Origin: Tubiluchus corallicola
Taxonomy: Eukaryota; Animalia; Priapulida
DNA length: 43,170 bases
NCBI GenBank assembly: GCA_030141605.1
Contig: JAQGDQ010001388.1
Location: forward strand, 1 to 43,170
Reading direction: 5' to 3'
The position numbers and the translations under genes are program-made. Below, piece after piece: positions 5,073 through 43,170 of the stretch; the stretch's first letter is position 1; every line of letters begins with the position of its first letter. Below the pieces are notes generated by a model. That model did no database searches. It saw nothing but the letters and a program-made list of their open reading frames with translations, and was not told where the DNA came from.

Positions 5073-5099
5073 ATATATATATATATATATATATATATA
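5073..5099. repeat. (AT)n microsatellite
   Basis: Perfect AT dinucleotide run abutting the putative LTR. Confidence 0.9.
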
Positions 5100-18298: not shown

Positions 18299-21200
18299 NN
18301 NNNNNNNNNNNNNNNNNNNNNNNNNNNNNNNNNNNNNNNNNNNNNNNNNNNNNNNNNNNNNNNNNNNNNNNNNNNNNNNNNNNNNNNNNNNNNNNNNNCC
18401 GAGTTAACCTTATTGTCACATGCAAAGTTTGATCTGCTTGTTAATCGAAACTTGAAAGACTTAATTTTGATCCCTAAAGGTATTATCCTTTGACTAGTAG
18501 TACTGATTCATAGTGTATAATTATGACACTTGTACATAATCCCTGTTCAGTATGCATTTATGATCACTTTTGTGAGTTTGCATCATGATTTTAGATAGGT
18601 CTAACATTTACCCGTGTTTTATTATCATTATCATTGTTCCAAAAAGTAAAAAAGGCTTTCGCCTCACTTTGGCATAATTTATTTGTACATATTTATAGTA
18701 TACATTAAATGATCTAGTTTATTTATGTATTGCAGATACACTTGATACTTGTTTTGGTAGAGATAACAACAGTGCTAATTTTTTACCTGAACAAATAGTT
18801 CCTGTAGCATTTGATCCTCTCACATCAATTGTTCCATCAATACACTGGCATGTAAAACTTCCATCAGTATTTGAGCAGTTAGCAAGGACAGGATCACAGT
18901 CATGGGTAGGACTGGCGGCATCACATTCATTTATATCTGAATTGAACAAAACCGCAATGTTCAACAGTCATGTGTATAATTTGCAGCATAACATTAACAT
19001 TAAACAAAATGGTACTGTTTAATATTGATTATAGTTGCTGCATATTTCCTTTTTACACATAGAATTACCCTAAATTCACATACTTATGAAGTTTGGTCTG
19101 GTAATCAATGTCTCTGTACAGTATGCATTTAGCAAGATTTATCATAACCACTTTTGTGTCTTTACATAACGTTTCAGTAATTCTAACCTGTACTGTGTTT
19201 TTTTATTCATTATCATTGTATTCACATGCTGACAGACGACAAGAGAAGCGGTTTTTTCACTTAGGCATAATTTCTGTTCGCATGTTAATACTTGTTTATA
19301 GAATACATTACATGGTTCTGTTTATTCATGTACTGAAGACACGTTTGACATTTGTATTTTGAATGAACGCAGCAGTCTGATCCAGTTATCAACCAAAACA
19401 TGAATTGATTTTTTACTGCTTCATCTTTTGACAGGTAGTATTGAATCATAGTATATAATCATGAGTATGCATTTATCAAGGTTTTCTATGATCACATTTG
19501 TGTCTTTGCATGAAATTTCAGGTAATTCGTTAATGTTTTTTGTTGACCATCAGCTCTTTCCTAACAGTAAACGTGTAAAAGATCAGATTTATTCATGTAT
19601 TTTATATATCTTTGACATTTTTGTTTAAAATAGTAATAAAATTGCTTATTTTTACCTGAGCAAATAGTTCCTGTAGCATTTGGTCCACTCACATCCATTG
19701 TTCCATCAAAACACTGACAAGAAAAACTTCCATCAGTGTTTGTGCAGTTGGCGAGGACTGGGTCACAGTCATGTACTGGGTTACTTGCATCACATTCGTT
19801 CACATCTGCAAGATGAAATTTGTCAAAATACCATTAAATAATAACGTATTACCCACGTTTCACGTTTTATTGTTAATCTTTGCAAACTGTTTTGTGAAAC
19901 TGTTTACCTGTACGTCTTACCTGAGCAAAGTGTTCCTGTAGCATTTTGTCCACTCACATCAATTGTCCCATCAATACATTGACATGTAAAACTTCCATCA
20001 GTATTTGTGCAGTTTGCAAGTGTTGGATCACAGTCATGAATTCGATTATTTGCATCACATTCATTAACATCTGTAAGGAAAGATTTTCAATGTATATCAT
20101 CAATTGCAAGATGCTAATTAGCTATGTTAAAGCTAATTGTGTAGGTTTAGTTTTTACCTGAGCATATAGTTCCTGTACCATTTGGTCCACTCACAGCTAA
20201 TCTTCCTTCAGGACACTGACAAGTGAAACTTCCGTCAGTATTAGTGCAGTTAGCAAAGATTGGATCACAGTCATGAATGGGATTATTTGCATCACATTCA
20301 TTAACATCTGTAAAAAACAGTATTCAGTTATCTCGAATTATAAGTCTTTAATTTGCAACGAAGCATAATCTTTTAAAATTAACTGTTAGCTGCATTTTAC
20401 CTGAGCAAATAGTCCCTGTAGCATTTGCTCCACTCATGTCAATTGTTCCATCAATACACTGACAAGAAAAACTTCCACCAGTGTTTGTGCAATTAGCAAG
20501 CTGAGGGTCACAGTTATGTGTTAGAATAGTAGCATCACATTCATTTATATCTAGATTGAACAAAATAAAACTCATCATTTATTACAACTGTCGCATACAT
20601 TGTTTTTTATACAAAATAACAACAGTTATCACGTATTTACAAAATTTGTTGCTCTTATGTCAATCAAATCTGGCAGAGTTTATTAGAAATGCTGAAAGCT
20701 TCATAAACTTGCAAAACATTCTTATGTTGTCAACCAAAATTTCGACGAGGTTATTTAAAGAGAAATTTTTGCAGGGCTTTAGCTAGTGGTATAAATAGTA
20801 TAAAATGTGAATGAGCTGCACCTAGCTGTTATAAAATACATTATTTTGTGACTGACCACCTTTAGTTTACCTGGTTAAGTTTACCTTTGATCATCTGTAA
20901 TCTTATAATTAACCTGCAGAGCGATGAAACTCTTAAATATTTTAATTTTTGGCCTTGTACATAAACAACTGAAATATGCGCCTATTTTGTGTCTATATCT
21001 GCACATATTTCAATAATAAACTTCTTTAAAACTTCTCTTATACAGGTACCAGAATTGTATACAGGTTTTAATTGATACTGCCAACTTAAAGCATTTATGT
21101 TTTACCTGAACAACTGGTTCCTTGGCCAATTGCTCCACTCACATCAATGGTTCCTTCAATACATTGACATGTGAAACTTCCATAAGTATTTGAGCAGTTT

Positions 21201-24200
21201 GCAAGGATTGGATCACAGTTGTGGGTTCCAGTAGCACATTCATCTGTATCTGAATTTATTAAATTAGTGTTAATTTTAGCATAGTCCATGTAAGCCTTTA
21301 CCAAGATTTTATGAAAGACAGGTCATATAGTTTGTTTCCATGAAAGATCGTGTGTTTCCTCAAGGTTTGCATATGTTTTTGCAAGTAGCATTACTGTTAG
21401 TTTTGCATTATTATTATTCTAATCTTTTGTCTGTTAAATTTTATGCTGAAAGTTGAACAACACTGTGACTACATATATATTGGGTGGATGACCTTTTATT
21501 TTTTTGTACGTGACTATTTCTGTACTGTTATATTTTCTGTATTGTTTTGTACAGTTTTACTGATATATAACTGTTATACATGCTATCATTATGCTTTTTT
21601 AGATTCGCCTGTGGCTTGAAACTACATCTTATCATTGAGTAAAAATAATGCCCTGCGACTAAGAAATTTGTTAGCTTGTTTTATTCATGAGTCCACCCAT
21701 ACACACAACACTGATCATGTTGTCAACCAAAATTTCAATGAGATTCTTCAACGAGAAATTATGGCGGGCTTTGGCTAGTGGTTTAATTATTACAAAATGA
21801 CTGTAATCGACGTTATTTTGCGATTGAGCATGTTTTAAAAAAGCTTGTTAAGTTTACCTTTGATCATCTGTAACCTTATAGTTAACCTGCGCAGTGACGA
21901 AACTCTTAAATGCTTTAAATGTTTGGCCTAGCACATGGACAACTGCAATATGGGCCTAATTTTTGTCTATATCTGCACATATTTCAATAATAAACTTCTT
22001 AAAAACTTCTCTTATACATACGTTACATCATCCAACCTTGTAGGTACCAGAATTGTATACAGGTTTTAATTGATGCCGCCAGCTTAAAGCATTTATTTTT
22101 TACCTGAACAACTGGTTCCTTGGCCATTTGCTCCACTCACATCATTGGTTCCTTCAATACATTGACATGTGAAGCTTCCATCAGTATTTGAGCAGTTTGC
22201 AAGGAATGGATCACAGTTGTGTGCTCCAGTAGCACATTCATCTGCATCCGAATTTATTAAATTAGTGTTAATTTTAGCATAGTCCATGTAAGCCTTTACC
22301 AATATTTCATGATAGATCTGTATCTAATAGGTATTATTAATTTTAGCACGGTTCATATAAGCCTACCAAGTTTTCATGATGTTGACTTAGTACTACCAAC
22401 AATACTAGTCCACTACGTATAACAAGAACCCCAGCTTCCATCCAATAAAATTTAATCAAGAACTCGAAAACTGTTGCCCTGTAGCTACTGTGATTAAATA
22501 GTTTTTCAAAATAAAAGACAATAAATATTGTTTGAATTAAATTTGAAAATAAAGTGCAGATAATTTTTTAATATATATGCTGTTTGGTGCAACTCGAACA
22601 GTTGATTAAAATTATTAATTTTTACTTGCACATTCATATTTGTATCTATATTATAAGTTTCTATATCCATGACGATATTCACATTCTTATTCTTAATTCA
22701 TGCATGTAATTCACATTTGGTCACCTATCTCAGGTGTTATTATAGAAAATACTGATCAACTGTTCACTTACATTTTGAATAACAAATTAAGCCAAAACCA
22801 AACTATGTCAACTGTATTTCATGATTATTTTCTTTGGGCCTATAGATAAGCTTTCTAGTTGTTGCAGATATATTCAAGTTTTGTTTAAGTAATTAAGTTT
22901 TGTTTAATCATATTCTTTGACAAAATCGCGTTTATTTTAGTGATCACTGCTGCAGTTGAATATTGCATGCTTATCTACTGGAAATAATTGTTATTATGAA
23001 TGTGGTACATACCAGAGTCAGATACATAAGAAATTTCACATACTGATGGGGACGTGTAGTCGCAATTATAGGTATAGTGTTTATAGGGTTCTACATAAAT
23101 AACACAAAATTCCACCTGAAAAAGATGAAGATGGAAGCAGTTTAATAATTATAGAAAGGATCAATATTAAAATTGTGGGGCAGACCAAGATAGCAAAATG
23201 TTTTAATTTCGATTTGCTGAGTGATAATTAGCGTTAATTAGAATATGATAATAGCGACAGAATAAAAATGATTCAGTTAATGAATCTAACAACAATTTGG
23301 CAAAAACGAACAGAAAAATAGTCCCGGTAACAAACAAATTTGCCTGTAACGTGGGTTTAGGCACAATTGATAATCCCTAAAGAATCACAAAAATTAATGA
23401 AATTGATACATGTGAATTACCCGAGAAACTTGTTGAAGTAGTTCACTTTTCCAAAGTGAATAACCCAGCCATTCAAATGTGTAATGGCCCTTTGAGGTCC
23501 AACCATTGAAAACTGAAACTATCTGTCCATCTGGTGTCTCATAGTTTCCGGTTCCAATTTTGAGCCTTGGTGAAAGCCAGACATTACCATGATTCCTTTA
23601 AAGCAGAAATGTTTAACAAATGGAAACTGAACTGATTTATATAAGTGATTTATTGCAACAAAAGTGAGCATTTTCTCCAATGGGCTATTTCATTGACAGC
23701 AAGCAACAAATAAACTGTTACCTATAGTGTATTACCTAAATATGCTACAAACTGAGGCTTAACAGCTGCTCGTAACGACAGAGGACTGTCAGTTGCTATT
23801 AATGATTGAAGAGTACAGTAGCTGTTGCTAATTGTGAAACATTAAATGTTTCTATTTAAGAAATGCCTCAAATGTGGCACCTTGTATGCCATTCACCAGT
23901 TAATGCTTCCTGCTGCCTCAATGGTGATGACACTAGTTGTCAACAACTGCTTATTCAGGATTATCAGCAGTATCGTCAATATCATCACCACCACCATCGT
24001 CATCATTAACATCAGCAATTGCTAACTTCGAAATCGCCATCATCTTGATTCCAAATTCGCAGCTTGCACAACGATGCAGAATGTATACTTACAGCCCCAT
24101 GAAATTATTATTGTCGTAGTCATAGTAATCACGGAGATTGAACATGCTTAAAAGGGCAATGGTATCCTGGGGTGATGTCACTTCCAAGAGTCTCCGTGGA

Positions 24201-27200
24201 GATGAACACATTACAAGAGCATCTCCATAAGACATTGCCAGTCCCTCCCTCTCAAGGCATTTGGATCGGCCATTATGAAAAGCAGTAGAACTACAGACTT
24301 GTTTAACTGCAAGTATAAAATGAACAATCATGTTAATTTAACCAGAGTCACTCAGACCTAAGCCCAAATGCACGGACTTATTGGTCGCTCAGATGCAGTC
24401 AGTATGGTTGTGATCTTTGGCAGGATTTCTGGTTGTCCTCTTTTAGCAAATTTCATTGGTCGCAAGACAAGAACAAGAGAATTAATATTGACAAACTTTA
24501 GTCAGAATTTACAAGTATAAAAACTGCAAGGTACCTTAAAAATAATCTTTTTTTAGCTTGCCTTTGTCAGTAGAAAGACATAAAACTGTACTTAGAAGAG
24601 CAAGAGTACAACACTGCTTGTATGTCATGGAACATTGCCAGGAAGACTTAACCTGTCTGAAACAATGTCATCTAACATCCTACATCCTGTCTCAGCTGCC
24701 TGCGGCTACAGCATCTCACAAAGTGCATTGCATCTCACCTGTCTGAGGCAATGGCATCTCACAAACTGCGTATTCTATAGAGTCGTTAGTTTTTCTGCTC
24801 TGAAGGACAAATGTGTTTGACTCTTTGAGCACAATCACCCCAACTTTGTCAGCAGCTTCTACAAAACACATTCAGAATATGATTCGTTTTAGTACAAGTG
24901 CACAAAAAATAAGCTAGGTGTTGATAAGTTATTCAAAAAATCTAAATAATTTCTAATTTTACTAGATAATCGTTGAATTTCGGGAAAAGAAACTTGACAG
25001 AAAAAGAAAATTTGAACAGTGGAGCTTCGGACTACAACTTTTATGAAGGTTTTGCGAGCACTGCAGTCAAATTTATTGCCATGAATTAAGTGAAATACGC
25101 GTTATGTGGTCAGAATTTTTATATACATTGCAACCTCTAGAGACTTAAGATCTTATAAGAGTTAACAGAAAATCTGAGTTAAGCAGATTTGAGTTAAGCA
25201 GAGTGAAGTGACTGTGAAAAGTTAGAGTTTGACAAATGCCACAGGCAAAGTGTTTAAGAATGTATGCAACGTACATAAGTTTACACATTTTGTACGAATG
25301 CACAGCAAAACCTTATTCATAACGTTTTTCAACATACCTTCAAATATTTCAACGTTACTGTAAATACCAGTCATGTCCATATCCTGTAGATGTATCCAGT
25401 TATTGGTATTCCCATATTGCATCAGCCCAACCCACGCTATCTGCTCTCCCCTAATGATAAAGTAAATTAGTATTGTGTGAAAATTTAAACAGTATATCTT
25501 CTATATCCAAAATTCTGCAGTCTTTTTTCGCCAAAATTTTAGTAAAATGATTTTAGTAAGTTTGTCAGCCTTAGCACATTTACATGCATTTCAACAAATT
25601 ATATATACTTACAATATATATCAAAAATAACATGGCGTGTCACAAATAGTTATTACATTCCAAACATAAATTAAGTGTGACACCCATTAATTCATAAGAT
25701 ACATACATTGTAATAGCTGATTCCACTGCTGCTCCAACAGCTGCTACTTTCTCTTCTGAATCAACTTTAGCTAGAGAAGCAGTTAATCCATCAGCTTCCT
25801 GCCAACAAGTCCATTCAGCCAGTGCCAAGGAGTCAAAGTGATTTCTGGCCAAATTCAGGTCAAGTTGAATTACTTTGAGGCAAGATGAAAAATTGGCACT
25901 GGAATAATCGGTCCATCCTGAAGGACACTGATTGCCATCAACTAAATTAAACAAAACTGTTTTGTAATGTCCAGAAAAAATGCAGAAATGGTTCTCTTGT
26001 AAATGTCTCACGTCTCTGTGTTAACTTTGTGTCTTCCAATGTCAACCTCTGGTGGACCCAGAAGCAAAATATACAGCTGCAAATGAATATTCATAGAACA
26101 TTTGAAACACTAAGTCGAGGAAGAGCTGCGTGGTCATGACGTGTGCTTAATTGTGAATGTGGCTCTGCTTGTTCTGTGTCTGATCTTAAATATTTGCAAT
26201 TGGGGATTATGATCTTGAGTGATTGATATAGATCTTGCTGTCATAGATCTGGAACATTAAAAAAACTGGATAGCCGCGAAACAGTTCAACATTTATTGTG
26301 AATCACATTAAAATAGCTATTCTATAATTACGAGTTGGTTTAATAAATTATCTCACCTCCTGTCAGTGCAGTTGGCACCGCTGCAGCATCATATTCGCAA
26401 ATGACGTTAATCTCTTCAGAATCATCATATTGACATCTGTTGGTTCTCCATTGGTAACCACTACTCAGTTCAGCAATTACACAAAATTTATCCGTTGATG
26501 CTAAAAAACAGAAGTAGTTAATAAAATTTTAATAGTTCTCGATATTATATTAGTAATTATTGTTGAAAGCAGGAGAATCATTGTGTGTAAGTAAGATGAT
26601 AATGTATTTTAGTCTGGTTTGTAAGTAAGCATTTACACAATTAAAAGCTTGTTTAGATCAAGCTGGAAATCTAGTATGGCTTGCCTTATTTATGCGTTTA
26701 TGCTATTTTTTATGTCAATGGTAGAAAGTACAGAAATATGGTAATAAATTTAATTGCTAGTAATTTTGGCATTTTGTCTTTAAATATTGATAAAATTTGA
26801 AAGATTCTTATCCATACTGTTGCGTACTAACATTTTATTTACACTGTGCAAGTATAGCATAGAAAACGTGCATTTGTAAACAAAGTATTTCAGGTCATCG
26901 TTGCTCTTTGTAATAATGTTTAATTATTTATTTCACGCTGACTTTTAACACGTCAGCAAGTGACCAAACTAACATCTAAATACACACACCCTTTTAATTC
27001 ATCATTGATGTTGTTACTAATTTTTACTCTTACTATGAAATATGTAGACTCGTTATCATTTGACATAAATAAGATTCTCTTATAGTATAAAAGATTAAAT
27101 AATGCGGAAACAGAGCCTTTAGAAGAATCTAAATATTCTTCTAAATTCAGACTAATTTTTCTGTATGGATGATTCCAAATTGATTTGAATTGATGTGTGA

Positions 27201-28084
27201 ATTCGTTGGTTTTTAAAACGTGATAATCAGAGATCAACATACGACGCATCCAATCTTCCTGCCAATTTTTATAGTACCAATGTTCAGGCCCTCCAAAATC
27301 TTCATAAAGACCACCATCATCCCAGTAAAAGTTTTTGGTCACTTCATCGTACGTTATTCCCAGCCAATAGTAGTAGACTGTTGATGGAAATACAGCTCTG
27401 TAAATAAGGCAGTACATGAAACTTGTTCGATGGTGTTTTGAAGATAATCAAAGAAAAACTACAATTGAACTTCATGACAGACATGCGTAGTAATTGCATA
27501 TGCATGGACGTGTGGTGCATGTATGGTCCATGAGTAGCATTTTGTCATCTTGGTTAACATGATGCCTAGGTAGTCAGTATGCAGATGGATTGGATAAACC
27601 ATTTTGGTTCTCCCTCTGTACGATTTCCTTTGCCATGTTTATTTGGGCTGTTTACCTTTGTGAAGGGAGGATTTACACCAATCCAAACTTATGGTACCAC
27701 AACCGGGTTAGAGACTTGTGAGATACCAGATTGTATAAAAAATGTTCAACTGAAACTGACATTACATAATATTTAATTCCTTTCAAAGGGACCTTTTACA
27801 GTCATGTCATCGTTAAAACTTATTAACAATGGTTAATGGTATGGGGTAGGCTTTAAGTCTAAAATTACGAAGAAAGTAAGAAACCTTTGACACTCACCCA
27901 TTGTCACGAGCAAAGTAGTCCCAAACCTCTTCACTTTTAATTGACGCTAAAGAGGCCCCATATTGCTTGCAGTTGTAATAAGCTTTTACTCGGTTAGAAT
28001 GATCCATGACAAACTTATAACAATAGTTGTTTGTTCCGTCGGCTCCAACAAACCCTTCAAATCCTTCAGGGCATGATGCCTTAG
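8663..28084 (-). CDS. multi-exon gene, copy A: 3 C-type lectin-like domains followed by >=21 calcium-binding EGF repeats (extracellular glycoprotein); first and last exons not firmly identified
   Basis: 9 CTL exons and 21 complete + 1 partial EGF exons, with GT-AG boundaries and compatible phases read manually. No TM segment or terminal stop exon was found. Confidence 0.88.
9790..16500. repeat. tandem exon+intron repeat with a 786-bp basic unit and a 2792-bp higher-order unit
   Basis: Exon spacing is 786, 786, 786, 617, 603, 786, 786, 661. Exon pairs 10886/13678, 11672/14464 and 12458/15250 are exactly 2792 bp apart and share diagnostic variants. Introns are near-identical. Confidence 0.93.
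10376..10422 (-). pseudogene. truncated EGF exon with in-frame stop; further copies at 11162-11208, 11948-11994, 13954-14000, 14740-14786
   Basis: Intact TTCAG acceptor, then (D)INEC[DG]AVSPTHDCI followed by TAA. Confidence 0.8.
15523..21173. repeat. ~2.8-kb direct duplication flanking the assembly gap (15523-18298 vs 18399-21173)
   Basis: Six exon pairs at offsets of 2875-2877 bp with near-identical introns. The sequence after the gap restarts at CCGAGTTAACCTTATTGTCAC, as at 15523. Confidence 0.9.
18299..18398. other. assembly gap (100 N, probably a placeholder size)
   Basis: Run of exactly 100 N. Confidence 0.99.
18787..22241 (-). CDS. cbEGF exon array right of the gap (7 exons)
   Basis: Exons 18787-18936, 19656-19805, 19921-20070, 20158-20307, 20401-20550 (150 nt each), 21106-21249 (144 nt) and 22104-22241 (138 nt, using a shifted acceptor). 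Confidence 0.92.
23013..24306 (-). CDS. CTL-like domain 3, copy A (exons 24093-24306, 23421-23595, 23013-23115)
   Basis: KQVCSSTAFHNGRSKCL...MSYGDALVMC...LLEV | NVWLSPRLK...FEWLGYSLW | VEFCVIYVEPYKHYTYNCDYTSPSVCE; phases 1-2, 2-0, 0-1. Confidence 0.82.
24739..25941 (-). CDS. CTL-like domain 2, copy A (exons 25707-25941, 25338-25450, 24739-24858)
   Basis: QCPSGW...SCLKV...AEWTC...ASLAKVDSEE | AWVGLMQY..NW | ...YAVCE; phases 1-2, 2-1, 1-1. Confidence 0.85.
26357..28084 (-). CDS. CTL-like domain 1, copy A (exons 27898-28084, 27243-27397, 26357-26500)
   Basis: SCPEGF...CYKF...AYYNCKQYGASLASIKSEE | YWLGIT...FYWDDG...YKNW | FCV...WRTNRC...VICE; phases 1-2, 2-1, 1-1. Confidence 0.9.
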
Positions 28085-28804
28085 CTAAAAAAGTGAACAT
28101 CTATGAGGCACTAAAATTGTAACTAATTTATAAACTCAGAAATTGCTAATAGGTTTAATTAACTTTAATTAGATTAATTAGTTTCATTAGTGTTCCTGGA
28201 CAACTTATTTGATAAATTAACTCCTTATGACTGACAAAGCACTTGCCATAACTAATGGTACTATACTTCCTGATTAGGTATTTGTCAATTATTAGAAGAA
28301 TCTCTGTTATGCAAGACAGTTTACTCTTGAATACCTCATGAAAATACACTATGAGGTATCAAGCTGACCAACTTTAAAAGCCTGAAACTTGACACATGAG
28401 TATATTTTTAAGCCAGCAGCTACTCGGGAGTTGGACAAAGGTTTTTTTGTGATTGATTATAATTTGAAGAACGTAAAATATAAACTTAGCAAATACAAAC
28501 ATCAAGGCAAAGGCAACATAATTTTGTTTACTCTCAACATTAGCAGTAGCTGCTATTTTTGTGACATAAATTTTGCAAAAAACAGGCAAAAATGCAAGAC
28601 ACAAATAACAAGCAGCATGTAGGGTGTGCACTCCAGTATTAACAGAACTTGTCTCCATCCTAAAACTGCATTGTTGCAATTTATGGTCTAAAGCATTTGA
28701 CTTGTGAGCTCAGATGCCTGGCTGCTACACCAGTATTGCAATGACCAATTTCTATAATACCAAAGGCTGAAATGTTTATATTTTATTAAAAAATGTTTAT
28801 CTAA

Positions 28805-29585
28805 TCTCTTATATTAATATTCTTGGTATATATATATAAGATTTGAGGCTACAGCCCGGACGACGGCACCATTTGCGGCGATCTATACATCAAACGAAAG
28901 GTCTCGATCTAGTGTCGTGCCATTGATGGTTTATTTTTCGAATCGGGCCCACCAGGAGGAACGGGGGCGAAAAACCTCCAAAAATGGCCATTTTTCGGCC
29001 GTTTTTTGCAAAAGTTATACGGCTGAGATGTGGAGAACGGGAATGCGCCGAGGGGGGTACTGGGTATGGATAAATAGCTCGTTCAGCGATGGGTGTCATA
29101 GCCCTATTTAGAATTCGCGAGAAGGCCACGGCGCCCCGCAACGGGCGTTTTCCCGGACCCAACTCGCGATTTTTTCGAACTTTTGACCAAACAGCATGCG
29201 GAAAAAACGTTCTAGCGTCGCCTGGTGGGACTCTCGGAAGGAGAGATACGACTCATCAGGAAGAGGAAGAAAGGGGCTACACGCAGATGTGGGCTATATG
29301 TTAGGACATGTCCACCGAGAGGAGTACCGACGAGTTAGTTAGATGTTCTATTTTCGGCAATTTTCGCTTAGAAAACTGCTGACGCAATGTCATTGTTGTG
29401 ACGTCATTCTTTGAACTCTGCTTATAGCTTTAATTCAGTAAAAGCTGCTTTGCGTTAGGTAAGTAAACAAACAGTAGGCAGGATGTTACCGGCTTTGTGT
29501 TATAAATGAGGACTATGTAGGATTTTCGCGTATTATTGATTACACGTGTATTTATACGCAAAATCTTTTGCGGGGCCTTTGCTAG
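28805..29585 (+). mobile_element. non-autonomous Helitron-like element, copy 1 (781 bp)
   Basis: 5' end A|TCTCTTATATTAATA. 3' end CGCAAAA-TC-TTTTGCG hairpin, 9 nt, then CTAG|T. No TIR or TSD. These are canonical Helitron termini. Confidence 0.85.
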
Positions 29586-30678: not shown

Positions 30679-30805
30679 AACTTATATATCGGCGGGAAAA
30701 ACGTTCTAGCATCGCCCAGTGGGACTCTCGGAAGGAGATATATAGCTTATATTAAATATATATATATATATAACAATATATATATATTAGTAATAATAAT
30801 AATAA

Positions 30806-31350: not shown

Positions 31351-31496
31351 TGGTGGTCATGATGTTGATGATGATGATGATGGTGGTGGCAATGATGACG
31401 ACACCTATAGCACAAGCACCAACAGCACAGCATTACAACAAAACCATTCCAAACATTTTTCACAAAGTTGAAACTATGTGCTATAATATAATAAAT

Positions 31497-32592: not shown

Positions 32593-32925
32593 AATCTTAT
32601 AACTTTAATTCAGCAAAAAGCTGCCTGCTACGGGTTTGCGTTAGATAAACAGACATACAGTAGACAGGATGTTACGGGCTTTGTGTTATAAATGAGGATT
32701 GTGTAGGATGTTCACGTGTTATTGATTATACGTGGTTTTTTACGCAAAATCTTTAATTCAGCAAAAAGCTACAGGCTTTGCGTTAGTTAAACAAACAGTA
32801 GGCATGATGTTACGGGCTTTGTGTTATATAAATATATAGCCATTGTTCTGACGTCATCCATTGTACTCTGTCTATAGCTTTAATTCAGTAAAAGCTGCCT
32901 GCTGGCTCTGTGTTAGATAAACTGA
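32593..32925 (+). mobile_element. rearranged plus-strand fragments of the Helitron-like subterminal region
   Basis: Reverse complement of parts of 31560-31990 (TTTAATTCAGCAAAAAGCTG..., GGATGTTACGGGCTTTGTGTTATAAATGAGG). Confidence 0.7.
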
Positions 32926-32944
32926 TATAATATAATATTAATAT

Positions 32945-33161
32945 CACACCACACTGCACCACACCATACCACTCCACCTCATCGCACCACACCACACTGC
33001 ACCACACCATACCACTCCACCTCATCGCACCACACTGCACCACACAATACCACCACACCGCACCGCACCACACCATACCACCTACACACCACACCACCCA
33101 CACCACTCACACACCACACCACACCACCCACACCATGCGACTCCACCACATCACACCACGA
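32945..33161 (-). repeat. (CACCA)n-like repeat, mirror of 30386-30620
   Basis: Junction CACATCACACCACGACTAGC is the reverse complement of GCTAGTCGTGGTGTGATGTG. Confidence 0.85.
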
Positions 33162-33947
33162 CTAGCAAAGGCCCCGCAAAAGATTATGCGTAAAAAACCA
33201 CGTATAATCAATAACACGCGAACATTCTACCTAGTCCTCATTTTTAACACAAAGCCCGTAGCAGCTTTTACTGAATTACAGCAGCGTAGCAGCTTTTTGC
33301 TGAATTAAAGCTATAAGATTATAGACAGAATACAATGGATGACGTCACAACAATGCCTTTGCGTCAGCAGTTTTCTAAGCGAAAATTGCCGAAAAATAGA
33401 ACATCTAATTAACTCGCTAGTACTCCTCTCGGTGGACCTGCCCTAACATATAGCCCACATCATCTTGTAGCCCCGTTCTTCCTCTTTCTAAAGAGCCCCA
33501 TATCTCTTTCCGAGAGTCCCACCAGGCGCCGCTAGAACGTTTTTTCCGCAGGCTGTTTGGCCAAAATTTCGAAAAAATCGCGAGTTGGGTCCGGGAAAAC
33601 GCCCGTTGCGGGACCCCGTGGCCCTTTCGGGAATTCTAAATATGCCTACTACACCCAACGCTGAACGGGCTATCTATCCGTACCCAGCACCCCCTCGACC
33701 CATTCCCGTTCTCTACATCTCAGCCGTATAACTTTTGCAATTTTTTGCAAAAAACGCCCGAAAAAGGGCCATTTTTGGAGGTTTTTCGCCCCCCGTTCCT
33801 CCCGGTGGGCCCGATTCGAAAAATAAGCCATCAATGAGACGACACCTTTCGTTTGATATATAGATCGCTGCAAATGATGCCCTCGTCAAAACTGTAGCCT
33901 CGAATCTTATATATATGTTAAGATACCAAGAATATTAATATAATAGA
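33162..33947 (-). mobile_element. Helitron-like element, mirror of copy 2
   Basis: CTAG at 33162-33165 and TC start at 33947. Several substitutions and a ~11-bp deletion relative to 29586-30385. Confidence 0.85.
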
Positions 33948-34728
33948 CTAGCAAAGGCCCCGCAAAAGATTTTGCATATAAATACACGTGTAATCAATAA
34001 TACGCGAAAATCCTACATAGTCCTCATTTATAACACAAAGCCGGTAACATCCTGCCTACTGTTTGTTTACTTACCTAACGCAAAGCAGCTTTTACTGAAT
34101 TAAAGCTATAAGCAGAGTTCAAAGAATGACGTCACAACAATGACATTGCGTCAGCAGTTTTCTAAGCGAAAATTGCCGAAAATAGAACATCTAACTAACT
34201 CGTCGGTACTCCTCTCGGTGGACATGTCCTAACATATAGCCCACATCTGCGTGTAGCCCCTTTCTTCCTCTTCCTGATGAGTCGTATCTCTCCTTCCGAG
34301 AGTCCCACCAGGCGACGCTAGAACGTTTTTTCCGCATGCTGTTTGGTCAAAAGTTCGAAAAAATCGCGAGTTGGGTCCGGGAAAACGCCCGTTGCGGGGC
34401 GCCGTGGCCTTCTCGCGAATTCTAAATAGGGCTATGACACCCATCGCTGAACGAGCTATTTATCCATACCCAGTACCCCCCTCGGCGCATTCCCGTTCTC
34501 CACATCTCAGCCGTATAACTTTTGCAAAAAACGGCCGAAAAATGGCCATTTTTGGAGGTTTTTCGCCCCCGTTCCTCCTGGTGGGCCCGATTCGAAAAAT
34601 AAACCATCAATGGCACGACACTAGATCGAGACCTTTCGTTTGATGTATAGATCGCCGCAAATGGTGCCGTCGTCCGGGCTGTAGCCTCAAATCTTATATA
34701 TATATACCAAGAATATTAATATAAGAGA
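33948..34728 (-). mobile_element. Helitron-like element, mirror of copy 1
   Basis: CTAG at 33948-33951 and TC start at 34728. Almost identical to 28805-29585. Confidence 0.85.
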
Positions 34729-34874
34729 TTAGATAAACATTTTTTAATAAAATATAAACATTTCAGCCTTTGGTATTATAGAAATTGGTCATTGCAATAC
34801 TGGTGTAGCAGCCAGGCATCTGAGCTCACAAGTCAAATGCTTTAGACCATAAATTGCAACAATGCAGTTTTAGG

Positions 34875-35001
34875 ATGGAGACAAGTTCTGTTAATACTGG
34901 AGTGCACACCCTACATGCTGCTTGTTATTTGTGTCTTGCATTTTTGCCTGTTTTTTGCAAAATTTATGTCACAAAAATAGCAGCTACTGCTAATGTTGAG
35001 A
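34875..35001 (+). CDS. possible first coding (leader) exon of copy B; mirror at 28532-28658 on the minus strand
   Basis: METSSVNTGVHTLHAACYLCLAFLPVFCKIYVTKIAATANVE has a hydrophobic stretch, and a weak phase-1 donor A|GTAAAC is compatible with the next exon. Speculative. Confidence 0.3.
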
Positions 35002-35448
35002 GTAAACAAAATTATGTTGCCTTTGCCTTGATGTTTGTATTTGCTAAGTTTATATTTTACGTTCTTCAAATTATAATCAATCACAAAAAAACCTTTGTCC
35101 AACTCCCGAGTAGCTGCTGGCTTAAAAATATACTCATGTGTCAAGTTTCAGGCTTTTAAAGTTGGTCAGCTTGATACCTCATAGTGTATTTTCATGAGGT
35201 ATTCAAGAGTAAACTGTCTTGCATAACAGAGATTCTTCTAATAATTGACAAATACCTAATCAGGAAGTATAGTACCATTAGTTATGGCAAGTGCTTTGTC
35301 AGTCATAAGGAGTTAATTTATCAAATAAGTTGTCCAGGAACACTAATGAAACTAATTAATCTAATTAAAGTTAATTAAACCTATTAGCAATTTCTGAGTT
35401 TATAAATTAGTTACAATTTTAGTGCCTCATAGATGTTCACTTTTTTAG

Positions 35449-38400
35449 CTAAGGCATCATGCCCTGAAGGATTTGAAGGGTTTGTTGGAGCCAACGGAAC
35501 AAACAACTATTGTTATAAGTTTGTCATGGATCATTCTAACCGAGTAAAAGCTTATTACAACTGCAAGCAATATGGGGCCTCTTTAGCGTCAATTAAAAGT
35601 GAAGAGGTTTGGGACTACTTTGCTCGTGACAATGGGTGAGTGTCAAAGGTTTCTTACTTTCTTCGTAATTTTAGACTTAAAGCCTACCCCATACCATTAA
35701 CCATTGTTAATAAGTTTTAACGATGACATGACTGTAAAAGGTCCCTTTGAAAGGAATTAAATATTATGTAATGTCAGTTTCAGTTGAACATTTTTTATAC
35801 AATCTGGTATCTCACAAGTCTCTAACCCGGTTGTGGTACCATAAGTTTGGATTGGTGTAAATCCTCCCTTCACAAAGGTAAACAGCCCAAATAAACATGG
35901 CAAAGGAAATCGTACAGAGGGAGAACCAAAATGGTTTATCCAATCCATCTGCATACTGACTACCTAGGCATCATGTTAACCAAGATGACAAAATGCTACT
36001 CATGGACCATACATGCACCACACGTCCATGCATATGCAATTACTACGCATGTCTGTCATGAAGTTCAATTGTAGTTTTTCTTTGATTATCTTCAAAACAC
36101 CATCGAACAAGTTTCATGTACTGCCTTATTTACAGAGCTGTATTTCCATCAACAGTCTACTACTATTGGCTGGGAATAACGTACGATGAAGTGACCAAAA
36201 ACTTTTACTGGGATGATGGTGGTCTTTATGAAGATTTTGGAGGGCCTGAACATTGGTACTATAAAAATTGGCAGGAAGATTGGATGCGTCGTATGTTGAT
36301 CTCTGATTATCACGTTTTAAAAACCAACGAATTCACACATCAATTCAAATCAATTTGGAATCATCCATACAGAAAAATTAGTCTGAATTTAGAAGAATAT
36401 TTAGATTCTTCTAAAGGCTCTGTTTCCGCATTATTTAATCTTTTATACTATAAGAGAATCTTATTTATGTCAAATGATAACGAGTCTACATATTTCATAG
36501 TAAGAGTAAAAATTAGTAACAACATCAATGATGAATTAAAAGGGTGTGTGTATTTAGATGTTAGTTTGGTCACTTGCTGACGTGTTAAAAGTCAGCGTGA
36601 AATAAATAATTAAACATTATTACAAAGAGCAACGATGACCTGAAATACTTTGTTTACAAATGCACGTTTTCTATGCTATACTTGCACAGTGTAAATAAAA
36701 TGTTAGTACGCAACAGTATGGATAAGAATCTTTCAAATTTTATCAATATTTAAAGACAAAATGCCAAAATTACTAGCAATTAAATTTATTACCATATTTC
36801 TGTACTTTCTACCATTGACATAAAAAATAGCATAAACGCATAAATAAGGCAAGCCATACTAGATTTCCAGCTTGATCTAAACAAGCTTTTAATTGTGTAA
36901 ATGCTTACTTACAAACCAGACTAAAATACATTATCATCTTACTTACACACAATGATTCTCCTGCTTTCAACAATAATTACTAATATAATATCGAGAACTA
37001 TTAAAATTTTATTAACTACTTCTGTTTTTTAGCATCAACGGATAAATTTTGTGTAATTGCTGAACTGAGTAGTGGTTACCAATGGAGAACCAACAGATGT
37101 CAATATGATGATTCTGAAGAGATTAACGTCATTTGCGAATATGATGCTGCAGCGGTGCCAACTGCACTGACAGGAGGTGAGATAATTTATTAAACCAACT
37201 CGTAATTATAGAATAGCTATTTTAATGTGATTCACAATAAATGTTGAACTGTTTCGCGGCTATCCAGTTTTTTTAATGTTCCAGATCTATGACAGCAAGA
37301 TCTATATCAATCACTCAAGATCATAATCCCCAATTGCAAATATTTAAGATCAGACACAGAACAAGCAGAGCCACATTCACAATTAAGCACACGTCATGAC
37401 CACGCAGCTCTTCCTCGACTTAGTGTTTCAAATGTTCTATGAATATTCATTTGCAGCTGTATATTTTGCTTCTGGGTCCACCAGAGGTTGACATTGGAAG
37501 ACACAAAGTTAACACAGAGACGTGAGACATTTACAAGAGAACCATTTCTGCATTTTTTCTGGACATTACAAAACAGTTTTGTTTAATTTAGTTGATGGCA
37601 ATCAGTGTCCTTCAGGATGGACCGATTATTCCAGTGCCAATTTTTCATCTTGCCTCAAAGTAATTCAACTTGACCTGAATTTGGCCAGAAATCACTTTGA
37701 CTCCTTGGCACTGGCTGAATGGACTTGTTGGCAGGAAGCTGATGGATTAACTGCTTCTCTAGCTAAAGTTGATTCAGAAGAGAAAGTAGCAGCTGTTGGA
37801 GCAGCAGTGGAATCAGCTATTACAATGTATGTATCTTATGAATTAATGGGTGTCACACTTAATTTATGTTTGGAATGTAATAACTATTTGTGACACGCCA
37901 TGTTATTTTTGATATATATTGTAAGTATATATAATTTGTTGAAATGCATGTAAATGTGCTAAGGCTGACAAACTTACTAAAATCATTTTACTAAAATTTT
38001 GGCGAAAAAAGACTGCAGAATTTTGGATATAGAAGATATACTGTTTAAATTTTCACACAATACTAATTTACTTTATCATTAGGGGAGAGCAGATAGCGTG
38101 GGTTGGGCTGATGCAATATGGGAATACCAATAACTGGATACATCTACAGGATATGGACATGACTGGTATTTACAGTAACGTTGAAATATTTGAAGGTATG
38201 TTGAAAAACGTTATGAATAAGGTTTTGCTGTGCATTCGTACAAAATGTGTAAACTTATGTACGTTGCATACATTCTTAAACACTTTGCCTGTGGCATTTG
38301 TCAAACTCTACCTTTTCACAGTCACTTCACTTTGCTTAACTCTGATTTTCTGTTAACTCTTATAAGATCTTAAGTCTCTAGAGGTTGCAATTTATAAAAA

Positions 38401-41400
38401 AATTCTGACCACATAACGCGTATTTCACTTAATTCATGGCAATAAATTTGACTGCAGTCCTCGCAAAACCTTCATAAAAGTTGTAATCCGAAGCTCCACA
38501 GTTCAAATTTAGCCTTTTCACATTTTATTTTTTGTGTCAAGTTTCTTTTCCCGAAATTCGACGGTTATCTGGTAAAATTAGAAATTATTTAGATTTTTTG
38601 AATAACTTATCAACACCTAGCTTATTTTTTTGTGCACTTGTACTAAAACGAATCATATTCTGAATGTGTTTTGTAGAAGCTGCTGACAAAGTTGGGGTGA
38701 TTGTGCTCAAAGAGTTAAACGCATTTGTCCTTCAGAGCAGAAAAACTAATGACTCTATAGAATATGCAGTTTGTGAGATGCCATTGCCTCAGACAGGTGA
38801 GATGCAATGCACTTTGTGAGATGCTGTAGCCGCAGGCAGCTGAGACAGGATGTAGGATGTTAGATGACATTGTTTCAGACAGGTTAAGTCTTCCTGACAA
38901 CCTTCCCTGACATACAAGCAGTGTTGTACTCTTGCTCTTCTAAGTACAGTTTTATGTCTTTCTACTGACAAAGGCAAGCTAAAAAAGATTATTTTTAAGG
39001 TACCTTGCAGTTTTTATACTTGTAAATTCTGACTAAAGTTTGTCAATATTAATTCTCTTGTTCTTGTCTTGCGACCAATGAAATTTGCTAAAAGAGGACA
39101 ACCAGAAATCCTGCCAAAGATCACAACCATACTGACTGCATCTGAGCGACCAATAAGTCCGTGCATTTGGGCTTAGGTCTGAGTGACTCTGGTTAAATTA
39201 ACATGATTGTTCATTTTATACTTGCAGTTAAACAAGTCTGTAGTTCTACTGCTTTTCATAATGGCCGATCCAAATGCCTTGAGAGGGAGGGACTGGCAAT
39301 GTCTTATGGAGATGCTCTTGTAATGTGTTCATCTCCACGGAGACTCTTGGAAGTGACATCACCCCAGGATACCATTGCCCTTTTAAGCATGTTCAATCTC
39401 CGTGATTACTATGACTACGACAATAATAATTTCATGGGGCTGTAAGTATACATTCTGCATCGTTGTGCAAGCTGCGAATTTGGAATCAAGATGATGGCGA
39501 TTTCGAAGTTAGCAATTGCTGATGTTAATGATGACGATGGTGGTGGTGATGATATTGACGATACTGCTGATAATCCTGAATAAGCAGTTGTTGACAACTA
39601 GTGTCATCACCATTGAGGCAGCAGGAAGCATTAACTGGTGAATGGCATACAAGGTGCCACATTTGAGGCATTTCTTAAATAGAAACATTTAATGTTTCAC
39701 AATTAGCAACAGCTACTGTACTCTTCAATCATTAATAGCAACTGACAGTCCTCTGTCGTTACGAGCAGCTGTTAAGCCTCAGTTTGTAGCATATTTAGGT
39801 AATACACTATAGGTAACAGTTTATTTGTTGCTTGCTGTCAATGAAATAGCCCATTGGAGAAAATGCTCACTTTTGTTGCAATAAATCACTTATATAAATC
39901 AGTTCAGTTTCCATTTGTTAAACATTTCTGCTTTAAAGGAATCATGGTAATGTCTGGCTTTCACCAAGGCTCAAAATTGGAACCGGAAACTATGAGACAC
40001 CAGATGGACAGATAGTTTCAGTTTTCAATGGTTGGACCTCAAAGGGCCATTACACATTTGAATGGCTGGGTTATTCACTTTGGAAAAGTGAACTACTTCA
40101 ACAAGTTTCTCGGGTAATTCACATGTATCAATTTCATTAATTTTTGTGATTCTTTAGGGATTATCAATTGTGCCTAAACCCACGTTACAGGCAAATTTGT
40201 TTGTTACCGGGACTATTTTTCTGTTCGTTTTTGCCAAATTGTTGTTAGATTCATTAACTGAATCATTTTTATTCTGTCGCTATTATCATATTCTAATTAA
40301 CGCTAATTATCACTCAGCAAATCGAAATTAAAACATTTTGCTATCTTGGTCTGCCCCACAATTTTAATATTGATCCTTTCTATAATTATTAAACTGCTTC
40401 CATCTTCATCTTTTTCAGGTGGAATTTTGTGTTATTTATGTAGAACCCTATAAACACTATACCTATAATTGCGACTACACGTCCCCATCAGTATGTGAAA
40501 TTTCTTATGTATCTGACTCTGGTATGTACCACATTCATAATAACAATTATTTCCAGTAGATAAGCATGCAATATTCAACTGCAGCAGTGATCACTAAAAT
40601 AAACGCGATTTTGTCAAAGAATATGATTAAACAAAACTTAATTACTTAAACAAAACTTGAATATATCTGCAACAACTAGAAAGCTTATCTATAGGCCCAA
40701 AGAAAATAATCATGAAATACAGTTGACATAGTTTGGTTTTGGCTTAATTTGTTATTCAAAATGTAAGTGAACAGTTGATCAGTATTTTCTATAATAACAC
40801 CTGAGATAGGTGACCAAATGTGAATTACATGCATGAATTAAGAATAAGAATGTGAATATCGTCATGGATATAGAAACTTATAATATAGATACAAATATGA
40901 ATGTGCAAGTAAAAATTAATAATTTTAATCAACTGTTCGAGTTGCACCAAACAGCATATATATTAAAAAATTATCTGCACTTTATTTTCAAATTTAATTC
41001 AAACAATATTTATTGTCTTTTATTTTGAAAAACTATTTAATCACAGTAGCTACAGGGCAACAGTTTTCGAGTTCTTGATTAAATTTTATTGGATGGAAGC
41101 TGGGGTTCTTGTTATACGTAGTGGACTAGTATTGTTGGTAGTACTAAGTCAACATCATGAAAACTTGGTAGGCTTATATGAACCGTGCTAAAATTAATAA
41201 TGACCTATTAGATACAGATCTATCATGAAATATTGGTAAAGGCTTACATGGACTATGCTAAAATTAACACTAATTTAATAAATTCGGATGCAGATGAATG
41301 TGCTACTGGAGCACACAACTGTGATCCATTCCTTGCAAACTGCTCAAATACTGATGGAAGCTTCACATGTCAATGTATTGAAGGAACCAATGATGTGAGT

Positions 41401-43134
41401 GGAGCAAATGGCCAAGGAACCAGTTGTTCAGGTAAAAAATAAATGCTTTAAGCTGGCGGCATCAATTAAAACCTGTATACAATTCTGGTACCTACAAGGT
41501 TGGATGATGTAACGTATGTATAAGAGAAGTTTTTAAGAAGTTTATTATTGAAATATGTGCAGATATAGACAAAAATTAGGCCCATATTGCAGTTGTCCAT
41601 GTGCTAGGCCAAACATTTAAAGCATTTAAGAGTTTCGTCACTGCGCAGGTTAACTATAAGGTTACAGATGATCAAAGGTAAACTTAACAAGCTTTTTTAA
41701 AACGTGCTCAATCGCAAAATAACGTCGATTACAGTCATTTTGTAATAATTAAACCACTAGCCAAAGCCCGCCATAATTTCTCGTTGAAGAATCTCATTGA
41801 AATTTTGGTTGACAACATGATCAGTGTTGTGTGTATGGGTGGACTCATGAATAAAACAAGCTAACAAATTTCTTAGTCGCAGGGCATTATTTTTACTCAA
41901 TGATAAGATGTAGTTTCAAGCCACAGGCGAATCTAAAAAAGCATAATGATAGCATGTATAACAGTTATATATCAGTAAAACTGTACAAAACAATACAGAA
42001 AATATAACAGTACAGAAATAGTCACGTACAAAAAAATAAAAGGTCATCCACCCAATATATATGTAGTCACAGTGTTGTTCAACTTTCAGCATAAAATTTA
42101 ACAGACAAAAGATTAGAATAATAATAATGCAAAACTAACAGTAATGCTACTTGCAAAAACATATGCAAACCTTGAGGAAACACACGATCTTTCATGGAAA
42201 CAAACTATATGACCTGTCTTTCATAAAATCTTGGTAAAGGCTTACATGGACTATGCTAAAATTAACACTAATTTAATAAATTCAGATACAGATGAATGTG
42301 CTACTGGAACCCACAACTGTGATCCAATCCTTGCAAACTGCTCAAATACTTATGGAAGTTTCACATGTCAATGTATTGAAGGAACCATTGATGTGAGTGG
42401 AGCAATTGGCCAAGGAACCAGTTGTTCAGGTAAAACATAAATGCTTTAAGTTGGCAGTATCAATTAAAACCTGTATACAATTCTGGTACCTGTATAAGAG
42501 AAGTTTTAAAGAAGTTTATTATTGAAATATGTGCAGATATAGACACAAAATAGGCGCATATTTCAGTTGTTTATGTACAAGGCCAAAAATTAAAATATTT
42601 AAGAGTTTCATCGCTCTGCAGGTTAATTATAAGATTACAGATGATCAAAGGTAAACTTAACCAGGTAAACTAAAGGTGGTCAGTCACAAAATAATGTATT
42701 TTATAACAGCTAGGTGCAGCTCATTCACATTTTATACTATTTATACCACTAGCTAAAGCCCTGCAAAAATTTCTCTTTAAATAACCTCGTCGAAATTTTG
42801 GTTGACAACATAAGAATGTTTTGCAAGTTTATGAAGCTTTCAGCATTTCTAATAAACTCTGCCAGATTTGATTGACATAAGAGCAACAAATTTTGTAAAT
42901 ACGTGATAACTGTTGTTATTTTGTATAAAAAACAATGTATGCGACAGTTGTAATAAATGATGAGTTTTATTTTGTTCAACCTAGATATAAATGAATGCGA
43001 TGCTACTAATCTAACACATAACTGTGACCCTCAGCTTGCTAATTGCACAAACACTGGTGGAAGTTTTTCTTGTCAGTGTATTGATGGAACAATTGACATG
43101 AGTGGAGCAAATGCTACAGGGACTATTTGCTCAG
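35449..43134 (+). CDS. multi-exon gene, copy B: 3 CTL-like domains + cbEGF repeats, continuing past the window end
   Basis: Exons 35449-35635, 36136-36290, 37033-37176, 37592-37826, 38083-38195, 38677-38796, 39228-39441, 39939-40113, 40419-40521, 41294-41431, 42286-42429, 42985-43134. They splice into one open frame with GT-AG boundaries. Confidence 0.9.
38772..38890 (+). repeat. degenerate 43-bp triplication of an exon 3' end and donor site (mirror ~24645-24763)
   Basis: TGTGAGATGCCATTGCCTCAGACAGGTGAG (38772), TGTGAGATGCTGTAGCCGCAGGCAGCTGAG (38815), TGTTAGATGACATTGTTTCAGACAGGTTAA (38858). Confidence 0.7.
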
Positions 43135-43170
43135 GTAAAATGCAGCTAACAGTTAATTTTAAAAGATTAT

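What the first reader, a model, noticed from the sequence alone, without database searches (positions are those of the whole stretch)
20365..43170. Giant (>22 kb) palindrome centred on a Helitron nest that duplicates a CTL-EGF gene head-to-head
Seen: arms of >=10 kb with a constant coordinate sum (63533-63535) and only scattered differences by eye (e.g. GADGT vs GANGT in CTL1, which creates a sequon). An asymmetric ~2.3-kb spacer is made almost entirely of Helitron-derived and simple-repeat DNA. Both sides of the nest are flanked by the same host sequence, so the host DNA originally 3' of the Helitron insertion is absent and the fold-back point lies inside the nest. Inference: inverted Helitron copies seeded a fold-back or inverted-amplification event, giving two divergently oriented recognition genes that can be homogenised by arm-to-arm conversion, as in sex-chromosome palindromes.
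Basis: partly seen in the sequence, partly recalled or inferred. Interest (0 to 1): 0.85.

Follow-up and report, generated by a model that had tools for sequence, protein, structure and literature searches.

The report
Hairpin scaffold end, likely assembly artefact
The 10-kb mirror repeat is present in the assembled sequence, but it runs to the last base of its scaffold, as do several other sampled scaffold ends in this assembly, and both arms lack the start exon seen in related lectin-EGF genes, so it is likely an assembly fold-back that would have set two alleles head to head, not a real palindrome.

Summary
The inverted repeat is in the sequence: arms 20365-30608 and 32943-43170 (99.0%), with a 2,334-bp spacer 94% covered by a non-autonomous Helitron family. 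The reading as a real, conversion-maintained palindrome is doubtful. The right arm stops on the scaffold's last base, and 9 of 80 sampled scaffold ends in this assembly end in such a hairpin (11 within 100 nt), against 0 of 76 interior edges. One has 8.9-kb arms and no Helitron at its centre. Arm divergence (0.45% substitutions) resembles the allele-level distances measured here (0.4-0.6%). Both arms begin at an internal exon and lack the signal-peptide-like exon of two paralogs, so two working divergent genes are not supported. A non-palindromic copy (C2185) is bridged by contigs from another sample. Best reading (0.70): a fold-back read, likely primed by a 31-nt inverted Helitron stub, led the assembler back along the locus, partly through the other allele. 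A real palindrome remains possible (0.20): the inner repeat copies diverged independently and no raw reads were available. Three look-ups in the scan's earlier notes showed no such finding on other DNA.

The parts
20365..30608 (+). Left arm of the inverted repeat
   Evidence: blastn self-comparison, 98.99% to the right arm
32943..43170 (-). Right arm; ends on the last base of scaffold C1789
   Evidence: scaffold length 43,170
30609..32942 (.). Asymmetric spacer, 2,334 bp, 93.5% A/B Helitron-derived
28801..30386 (+). Two head-to-tail ~790-bp units of repeat A (A1, A2), 5' TC and 3' CTAG
   Evidence: family has 2,774 first-look candidates in the genome
30388..30677 (+). B1: 3' part (387-690) of the TGGTG-microsatellite unit B; its join to A2 occurs only here and in the mirror copy
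30678..30806 (.). AT-rich filler with a 51-bp piece of A and a (TA)n run; element polarity switches here
30807..32576 (-). Near-complete A+B element (A3-B2) with a 148-bp subterminal repeat x3, ending CTAG then T
32596..32898 (+). Three scrambled inverted fragments of A's 3' region
   Evidence: the inner junction is unique in the assembly
32931..32973 (.). 43-nt scar across the mirror boundary, holding 31 nt of inverted B; identical to the DNA beside the 3' end of a RepHel Helitron on C2218; likely fold-back primer
32943..34732 (-). Mirror copies B3 (387-621), A5, A6
24548..25222 (.). Divergent tract 1 (mirror 38311-38981): 20 substitutions and 5 indels, includes exon CTL2c; three versions exist (left, right, C2185)
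29698..30608 (.). Divergent tract 2: A2/B1 versus A5/B3, 20 substitutions and 8 indels, rare states on both copies
23014..28084 (-). Nine exons of three C-type-lectin-like modules, left copy; first exon opens with a phase-1 acceptor
   Evidence: tblastn exon map; Pfam Lectin_C only E 0.012, below cut-off
35449..40520 (+). Same nine exons, right copy
41284..43139 (+). Three calcium-binding EGF exons, right copy
   Evidence: Pfam EGF_CA E 9.5e-11 and 1.2e-9 for the two scanned
8658..22251 (-). Tandem array of 22 EGF exon matches (one cut by the gap) downstream of the left lectin modules
18299..18398 (.). N100 scaffold gap flanked by a 2.78-kb direct duplication (15523-18298 / 18399-21173, 11 substitutions, 3 gaps)

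Best explanation
The scaffold ends in a 10-kb mirror copy of a 5'-truncated lectin-EGF gene segment around a real Helitron nest, and this mirror is likely an assembly fold-back rather than a palindrome in the animal. Steps: (1, shown) a nest of non-autonomous Helitron units sits 0.7 kb upstream of the first lectin exon and contains inverted pieces, including a 31-nt inverted stub of unit B at 32943-32973; (2, inferred) during amplification or library making a strand ending in that stub annealed back to B1, 2.3 kb upstream, and copied the locus in reverse, giving a fold-back read; (3, inferred) the assembler followed that read and tiled the return path with leftover reads, partly from the other allele, so the arms are identical where the same or identical haplotypes were used and differ in tracts where the alleles differ; (4, shown) the path stops at the scaffold tip inside the EGF array. 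No second working gene results.
For: Right arm ends at base 43170, the scaffold's last. In 40 evenly numbered scaffolds, 9 of 80 ends finish within 5 nt of the tip in an inverted copy of nearby DNA, 11 of 80 within 100 nt (arms 522-8,924 bp, spacers 171-3,059 bp, 92-99.6%), against 0 of 76 interior window edges (Fisher p 0.003) and 0 of 39 interior windows with any inverted repeat of 500 bp or more at 90%. Only 1 of those 11 has an A/B hit at its centre. The C2220 hairpin has 8.9-kb arms, 55 substitutions (0.62%), 17 indels and a two-copy test stretch. Two tips look like raw reads (21 gaps in 591 columns; 16 indels in 857 bp) and one has a G-rich junk junction. At an A/B nest on C2517 a hairpin end cuts a 650-codon open frame in the middle, at 6 nt of microhomology. 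Arm substitution rate 0.45% is close to 0.40% across the N gap, 0.62% in C2220 and 0.56-0.60% between sample S1 and C2185. In S1, contigs matching the window type had about half the depth of C2185-type contigs in all three runs, the reverse of what a two-armed haplotype opposite one C2185 allele would give (weak, contig depth is not copy number). Precedent: the palindromes of the first Adineta vaga assembly were absent from the chromosome-level one (PMC8494291, passages); whole-genome amplification makes palindromic reads and false inverted duplications (PMC6218980, passages).
Against: No raw reads of this assembly were seen and its library method is not known to me. Real long palindromes also break assemblies at their arms, so enrichment at scaffold ends does not by itself prove artefact. 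A2 and A5 each carry their own rare states (about 16 and 9 sites against 40 other copies) right up to the turn, so the arms are two real sequences and not a copy of one read. Stretch 20365-21173 exists in three versions (contig before the gap, left arm, right arm), which two alleles explain only with a mosaic consensus, a real tandem copy or pooled animals. Outside the two tracts the arms differ at only 7 places in 8,658 bp, far less even than the C2220 hairpin. All junctions in the nest look like genuine Helitron scars. No other scaffold was found that carries the supposed true continuation of the nest. The interior control windows were not randomly chosen. Palindromes in a Botryllus assembly passed depth checks (PMC12448946, passages).
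Confidence: 0.7

Rival explanations
1. A real inverted duplication on one haplotype. A break in the nest folded back at the 31-nt inverted B stub, copied at least 10 kb and removed the upstream part of the gene; the arms have since diverged about 3% and most of their length was re-homogenised by arm-to-arm conversion, leaving two unconverted tracts. The copies would be decapitated gene fragments.
For: Both divergent tracts show about 3% substitutions with more transitions than transversions (24 to 16); one tract lies next to the spacer. A2 and A5 share a join that is unique in the assembly and have independent rare states. The boundary scar recurs beside a RepHel element. Three versions of tract 1 exist. 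Fold-back priming at short inverted repeats is shown in yeast (PMC10622511, passages).
Against: Same signature as 9-11 of 80 scaffold ends, most without Helitrons; if all were real the assembly would hold roughly 570 of them (extrapolated from 9 of 80 to 5,094 ends). Of 40 other A/B nests only 1 had long inverted host flanks, and it is at a scaffold tip. Allele-like divergence accounts for the tracts without conversion. S1 depth does not suggest two arms (weak).
Confidence: 0.2
2. The two alleles were joined head to head directly by the assembler through repeat overlap in the nest, with no fold-back read: left allele up to B1, right allele up to B2, joined in the AT-rich 30678-30806 stretch where element polarity flips.
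For: Read inward from each side, nearly all units are co-oriented, as in 26 of 28 other loci from one family search (27 of the 28 genome loci were single-orientation, one of two extra stretches); allele-level divergence of the arms.
Against: The join region offers only a short (TA)n self-complementary run and no long inverted homology; the 4-kb satellite and 10-kb arms in this scaffold point to long reads (inference), which need long overlaps.
Confidence: 0.1

Closest known systems
False palindromes and false duplications in long-read or haplotype-mixed assemblies (Adineta vaga AV13, PMC8494291; heterotype/homotype duplications, 10.1101/2020.05.22.110833; amplification palindromes, PMC6218980, PMC13265396; all seen as passages)
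   Same: Inverted or tandem second copy at a contig boundary or gap, about one read length long, diverged at allele level, recurring across the assembly.
   Different: Here the spacer is a real 2.3-kb Helitron nest with a plausible primer; the library type is unknown. Nanopore fold-back reads are defined with the turn within 200 bp (PMC12338684, passages), which fits only 2 of the 11 sampled hairpins (spacers 171 and 198 bp).
Mammalian Y-chromosome palindromes such as human P8 (38-kb arms, 3.4-kb spacer; PMC6790999, passages)
   Same: Long near-identical inverted arms around a kilobase-scale unique spacer, gene sequence in each arm.
   Different: P8 arms hold complete genes and were confirmed by fibre-FISH and linked reads. 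Here the arms hold 5'-truncated gene parts, identity is 99.0% with 3% tracts, one arm ends at a scaffold tip, and no molecule-level support was available.
Fold-back inversions primed at short inverted repeats (yeast, PMC10622511, passages)
   Same: A short inverted sequence at the turning point that can prime synthesis back along the same strand.
   Different: The yeast spacers in the passages seen are 6-35 bp; this loop would be 2.3 kb, and an in-vivo origin is not shown.
Non-autonomous Helitrons (terminal features as in Helraiser/Helibat1, PMC4778049, passages)
   Same: 5' TC, 3' CTAG then T, hairpin about 11 nt before the end, head-to-tail joins, ends shared with a RepHel-coding element in the same genome.
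   Different: Bipartite A+B build with two usable 3' ends and a TGGTG microsatellite; the left insertion junction is not a clean A|T site relative to C2185 but carries filler.

Membership tests
Real gene-conversion palindrome (Y-type) | Two long inverted arms around a spacer in the sequence | tested here: met
   10.2-kb arms, 2,334-bp spacer
Real gene-conversion palindrome (Y-type) | Both arms on one DNA molecule, each at full depth | not testable with these tools
   Only contigs of other samples could be laid; none listed spans the centre
Real gene-conversion palindrome (Y-type) | Arms much more alike than alleles | tested here: inconclusive
   7 events in 8,658 bp outside two tracts, but 0.45% overall against 0.4-0.6% allele-level estimates
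Real gene-conversion palindrome (Y-type) | Complete gene in each arm | tested here: not met
   First exon of paralogs C960 and C2220 has no counterpart in the window; arms start at an internal acceptor
Fold-back (hairpin) scaffold-end artefact | Inverted copy runs to the scaffold tip | tested here: met
   Right arm ends at 43170 = scaffold length
Fold-back (hairpin) scaffold-end artefact | Recurs at scaffold ends, not in interiors | tested here: met
   9 of 80 ends versus 0 of 76 interior edges; interior set not random
Fold-back (hairpin) scaffold-end artefact | Turn supported by one or few chimeric reads; arms at half depth | not testable with these tools
   No raw reads of the assembly were listed
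Non-autonomous Helitron (repeat A+B) | 3' end CTAG followed by T | tested here: met
   53 of 60 B ends; 24 of 81 A ends read CTAGT, 53 run on into B
Non-autonomous Helitron (repeat A+B) | 5' end TC after A or after a preceding CTAG | tested here: met
   Seen by inspection in the commonest 5' contexts of 90 starts and at 28801; not tallied exactly
Non-autonomous Helitron (repeat A+B) | Subterminal hairpin | tested here: met
   6-bp stems 10-14 nt before both 3' ends; short, no shuffle control
Non-autonomous Helitron (repeat A+B) | Ends shared with an autonomous RepHel element | tested here: met
   C2218 element: 1,249-aa frame with PF14214 over cut-off, 5' end matching A at 20 of 21 nt, 3' end 78% to B over 107 columns
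Helentron/DINE-1 type | Subterminal inverted repeats and TT target | not tested
   Features read in PMC4067079 (passages); not searched for in A+B
C-type lectin / EGF gene | Calcium-binding EGF exons | tested here: met
   EGF_CA over cut-off in 2 of 2 EGF exons scanned
C-type lectin / EGF gene | C-type lectin domains | tested here: inconclusive
   1 of 10 lectin-like exons hit Lectin_C, E 0.012, below cut-off; Atlas neighbours 0.87, Lectin_C in 11% of members; domains are split over three exons and were not scanned whole

The most novel reading that the evidence does not exclude
The palindrome is real and is one of hundreds: this animal's genome is rich in fold-back inverted duplications, and its Helitron leaves a recurrent 31-nt inverted stub beside its ends that primes fold-back in the germ line, here beheading and mirroring a lectin-EGF receptor gene whose arms then undergo patchy conversion.
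Probability: 0.1. Interest if true: 0.75.

Novelty: not a real feature. Interest (0 to 1): 0.17.

Why it matters
If the best reading holds, it is a warning for this whole assembly: about one scaffold end in nine carries a false inverted copy, up to 10 kb long and with allele-like differences, which can pass for gene duplication, palindromes or conversion tracts. Findings at scaffold tips in this genome need that check. If the rival holds, it would be a traceable birth of a palindrome from a transposon scar in an invertebrate gene family, with before (C2185-like) and after states in hand, though the duplicated copies would lack their start exon.

Tried and rejected
Mis-polishing of one copied repeat toward the family consensus as the source of the A2/A5 differences: rejected, because both copies hold rare states and almost none are shared beyond 29697. 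A start exon in the 0.7 kb between nest and first lectin exon: one weak ATG-to-donor candidate in the right arm has an in-frame stop in C2185; rejected. C2185 as the second allele of this individual: left open; S1 holds both C2185-type and window-exact contigs, so it may be a paralog. Helitrons as the general cause of hairpins: rejected, 1 of 11. Search for another scaffold continuing the spacer's junctions: only the window matched; the 30640-30860 search returned only repeat-end matches among 40 scored of 1,612 candidates. C420 inverted match was an interior 517-bp repeat, not a hairpin, and was not counted. Protein homolog search with one exon found nothing at E 0.001 among 103 candidates. 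Pfam gave nothing for two frames of the C2517 gene. No RNA holder listed. No listed contig of runs X1-X4 spans the centre, which proves nothing. Earlier scan notes: 5 unrelated notes by place, none by sequence or words. One paper search on Helitron plus palindrome terms (64 papers, 20 listed, titles and abstract starts only) showed no Helitron-seeded palindrome; this is not a claim of absence from print. Supplements were not read.
Full report
Observation. Self-comparison shows one long inverted repeat, 20365-30608 against 43170-32943, at 98.99% over 10,265 columns with 46 substitutions and 14 indels. The spacer is 2,334 bp and 93.5% covered by one repeat family. The window is the whole scaffold C1789, so the right arm is cut by the scaffold tip. 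An N100 gap at 18299-18398 is flanked by a 2.78-kb direct duplication with 11 substitutions and 3 gaps. Differences between the arms cluster: 25 events in 675 bp, 28 in the inner 911 bp, and 7 in the other 8,658 bp.

The centre. 28801-34732 is 97% covered by two units, A (~790 bp) and B (~690 bp, TGGTG microsatellite), normally found as head-to-tail A+B arrays in one orientation (27 of 28 genome loci). B ends in CTAG then T in 53 of 60 cases, both 3' ends have a short hairpin, and 5' ends begin TC. These are the terminal features given for Helraiser (PMC4778049, passages). A 1,249-aa RepHel frame on C2218 (PF14214 over cut-off) lies between a 5' end matching A and a 3' end resembling B (the Rep and helicase motifs I scanned for are recalled). 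The Helitron label therefore holds. The 43 nt across the mirror boundary (32931-32973) are identical to the DNA beside that element's 3' end, the only other match in 214 held loci. The boundary thus looks like a genuine scar holding 31 nt of inverted B, complementary to B1 at about 30578-30608, which is a plausible fold-back primer (inference).

The gene. Each arm carries nine exons of three lectin-like modules followed by EGF exons. EGF_CA is over cut-off; Lectin_C is only a weak hit. Paralogs on C960 and C2220 share a 76-nt ATG exon that encodes a hydrophobic 25-residue peptide and ends in a phase-1 donor, 2.0 and 3.3 kb upstream of the first lectin exon. Nothing like it is in the window or in C2185. 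C2185:33978-41231 is a 91-93% identical copy with no nest; there the first lectin exon follows an EGF exon. Contigs of sample S1 bridge that junction with 5 differences in 889 nt and 7 in 1,175 nt. Both arms are therefore 5'-truncated. The N-G-T sequon is the shared state and the left arm lost it. S1 holds C2185-type letters at 35 of 36 listed places and also contigs identical to the window where C2185 differs at 27 and 16 sites, so C2185 may be a paralog, and allele distances here may be near 0.6% rather than 7%.

Real or assembled? The arms are two real sequences: A2 and A5 share a join found nowhere else in the assembly, yet each has its own rare states against 40 other copies, and tract 1 has three versions. 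That rules out a plain copy of one read but not two alleles. I therefore asked how often this assembly ends scaffolds in hairpins. Among 40 A/B nests, one (C2517) has 1,833-bp inverted host arms at 99.9% starting at base 1, turning in the B microsatellite at 6 nt of microhomology and cutting a 650-codon open frame; C768 ends in G-rich junk followed by an inverted copy of B and its flank. Among 40 evenly numbered scaffolds, 9 of 80 ends finish within 5 nt of the tip in an inverted copy of nearby DNA and 11 within 100 nt; 0 of 76 interior window edges do (Fisher p 0.003), and 0 of 39 interior windows hold an inverted repeat of 500 bp at 90%. The ends were read to 10 kb, so this is a lower bound; the interior set came from five long stretches and 17 nests and was not random. 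One hairpin, on C2220, has 8.9-kb arms, 55 substitutions, 17 indels, a 198-bp spacer and no A/B repeat. Only 1 of the 11 has an A/B hit at the centre. Two tips have raw-read-like indel loads. The window's 0.45% substitution rate sits with 0.40% across the gap, 0.62% in C2220 and 0.56-0.60% for S1 against C2185.

Mechanism. Most likely a strand ending in the inverted B stub folded back on B1 during amplification or library making, and the assembler followed it back along the locus with unused reads, partly from the other allele, until the path ended in the EGF array. The nest, the stub, the tip-abutting arm and the recurrence of such ends are shown; the chimeric read and the use of the second allele are inferred. 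Passages read support the class: amplification yields palindromic reads and false inverted duplications (PMC6218980; 10.64898/2026.06.11.730069; PMC13265396); false duplications gather at contig boundaries and gaps (10.1101/2020.05.22.110833); artificial palindromes are a known risk (PMC7953838); and the Adineta vaga palindromes vanished on reassembly (PMC8494291). Nanopore fold-backs, defined within 200 bp, fit few of these spacers (PMC12338684).

Against this reading. No raw reads were available and the library method is unknown to me. Real palindromes also stop assemblers. The arms are far more alike outside the two tracts than the C2220 arms are, which suits conversion. Stretch 20365-21173 exists in three versions. 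No scaffold carrying a continuation of the nest was found. Botryllus palindromes survived depth checks (PMC12448946), fold-back priming occurs in vivo in yeast (PMC10622511), and human P8 has a similar spacer size (PMC6790999). I give a real palindrome 0.20 and a direct repeat-mediated join of two alleles 0.10.

Verdict. The mirror is in the assembly and the Helitron nest is real, but the palindrome is probably not a feature of the genome (0.70 fold-back artefact, 0.80 artefact of either kind). Even if real it would hold decapitated gene copies, not two divergent receptors. Interest 0.17; the useful result is the assembly-wide caution about scaffold tips.

Noticed in passing
G000 scaffold ends: C780, C1140, C2100, C1320, C1800 (both ends), C2220, C2340, C360, C1260, C1560 (L138, L141, L149, L162, L166, L202, L150+L175, L188, L191, L182, L200): 11 of 80 sampled scaffold ends finish in an inverted copy of nearby DNA (0.5-8.9 kb, 92-99.6%); any duplication finding at a scaffold tip of this assembly is suspect.
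   Followed up: yes
L107 (G000:C2517:1-7947): Hairpin scaffold start around an A/B nest; 1,833-bp arms with 2 substitutions; cuts a 650-codon low-complexity open frame with no Pfam hit.
   Followed up: partly
G000:C2218 221287-229545, minus strand (L063): Apparently full-length Helitron of about 8.3 kb with a 1,249-aa RepHel frame whose ends match repeats A and B; candidate autonomous partner. A 43-nt scar at its 3' end recurs in the window.
   Followed up: partly
window 15523-21173: 2.78-kb direct duplication across the N100 gap at 99.5%; may be two alleles placed in tandem or a real EGF-array repeat.
   Followed up: partly
window 8658-22251; G000:C960, C2220, C2518, C2185: Family of genes built of a signal-like exon, one or two blocks of three lectin-like modules and long arrays of single-exon EGF repeats (29 matches in the C2220 stretch read) that vary by tandem duplication; some EGF exons carry stops.
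   Followed up: partly
window 5390-5557, minus strand: A further first-lectin exon (64% protein identity) after the EGF array, with no matching later lectin exons before the satellite.
   Followed up: no
window 1-4228: 80-bp satellite, about 49 copies in the main array, 91% matches, running to the scaffold start.
   Followed up: no
G000:C2185 3818-9915 and 16416-22835: Direct segmental duplications of 4.2 and 2.2 kb at 91-93%, plus several satellites and a 7.3-kb N gap on the same scaffold.
   Followed up: no
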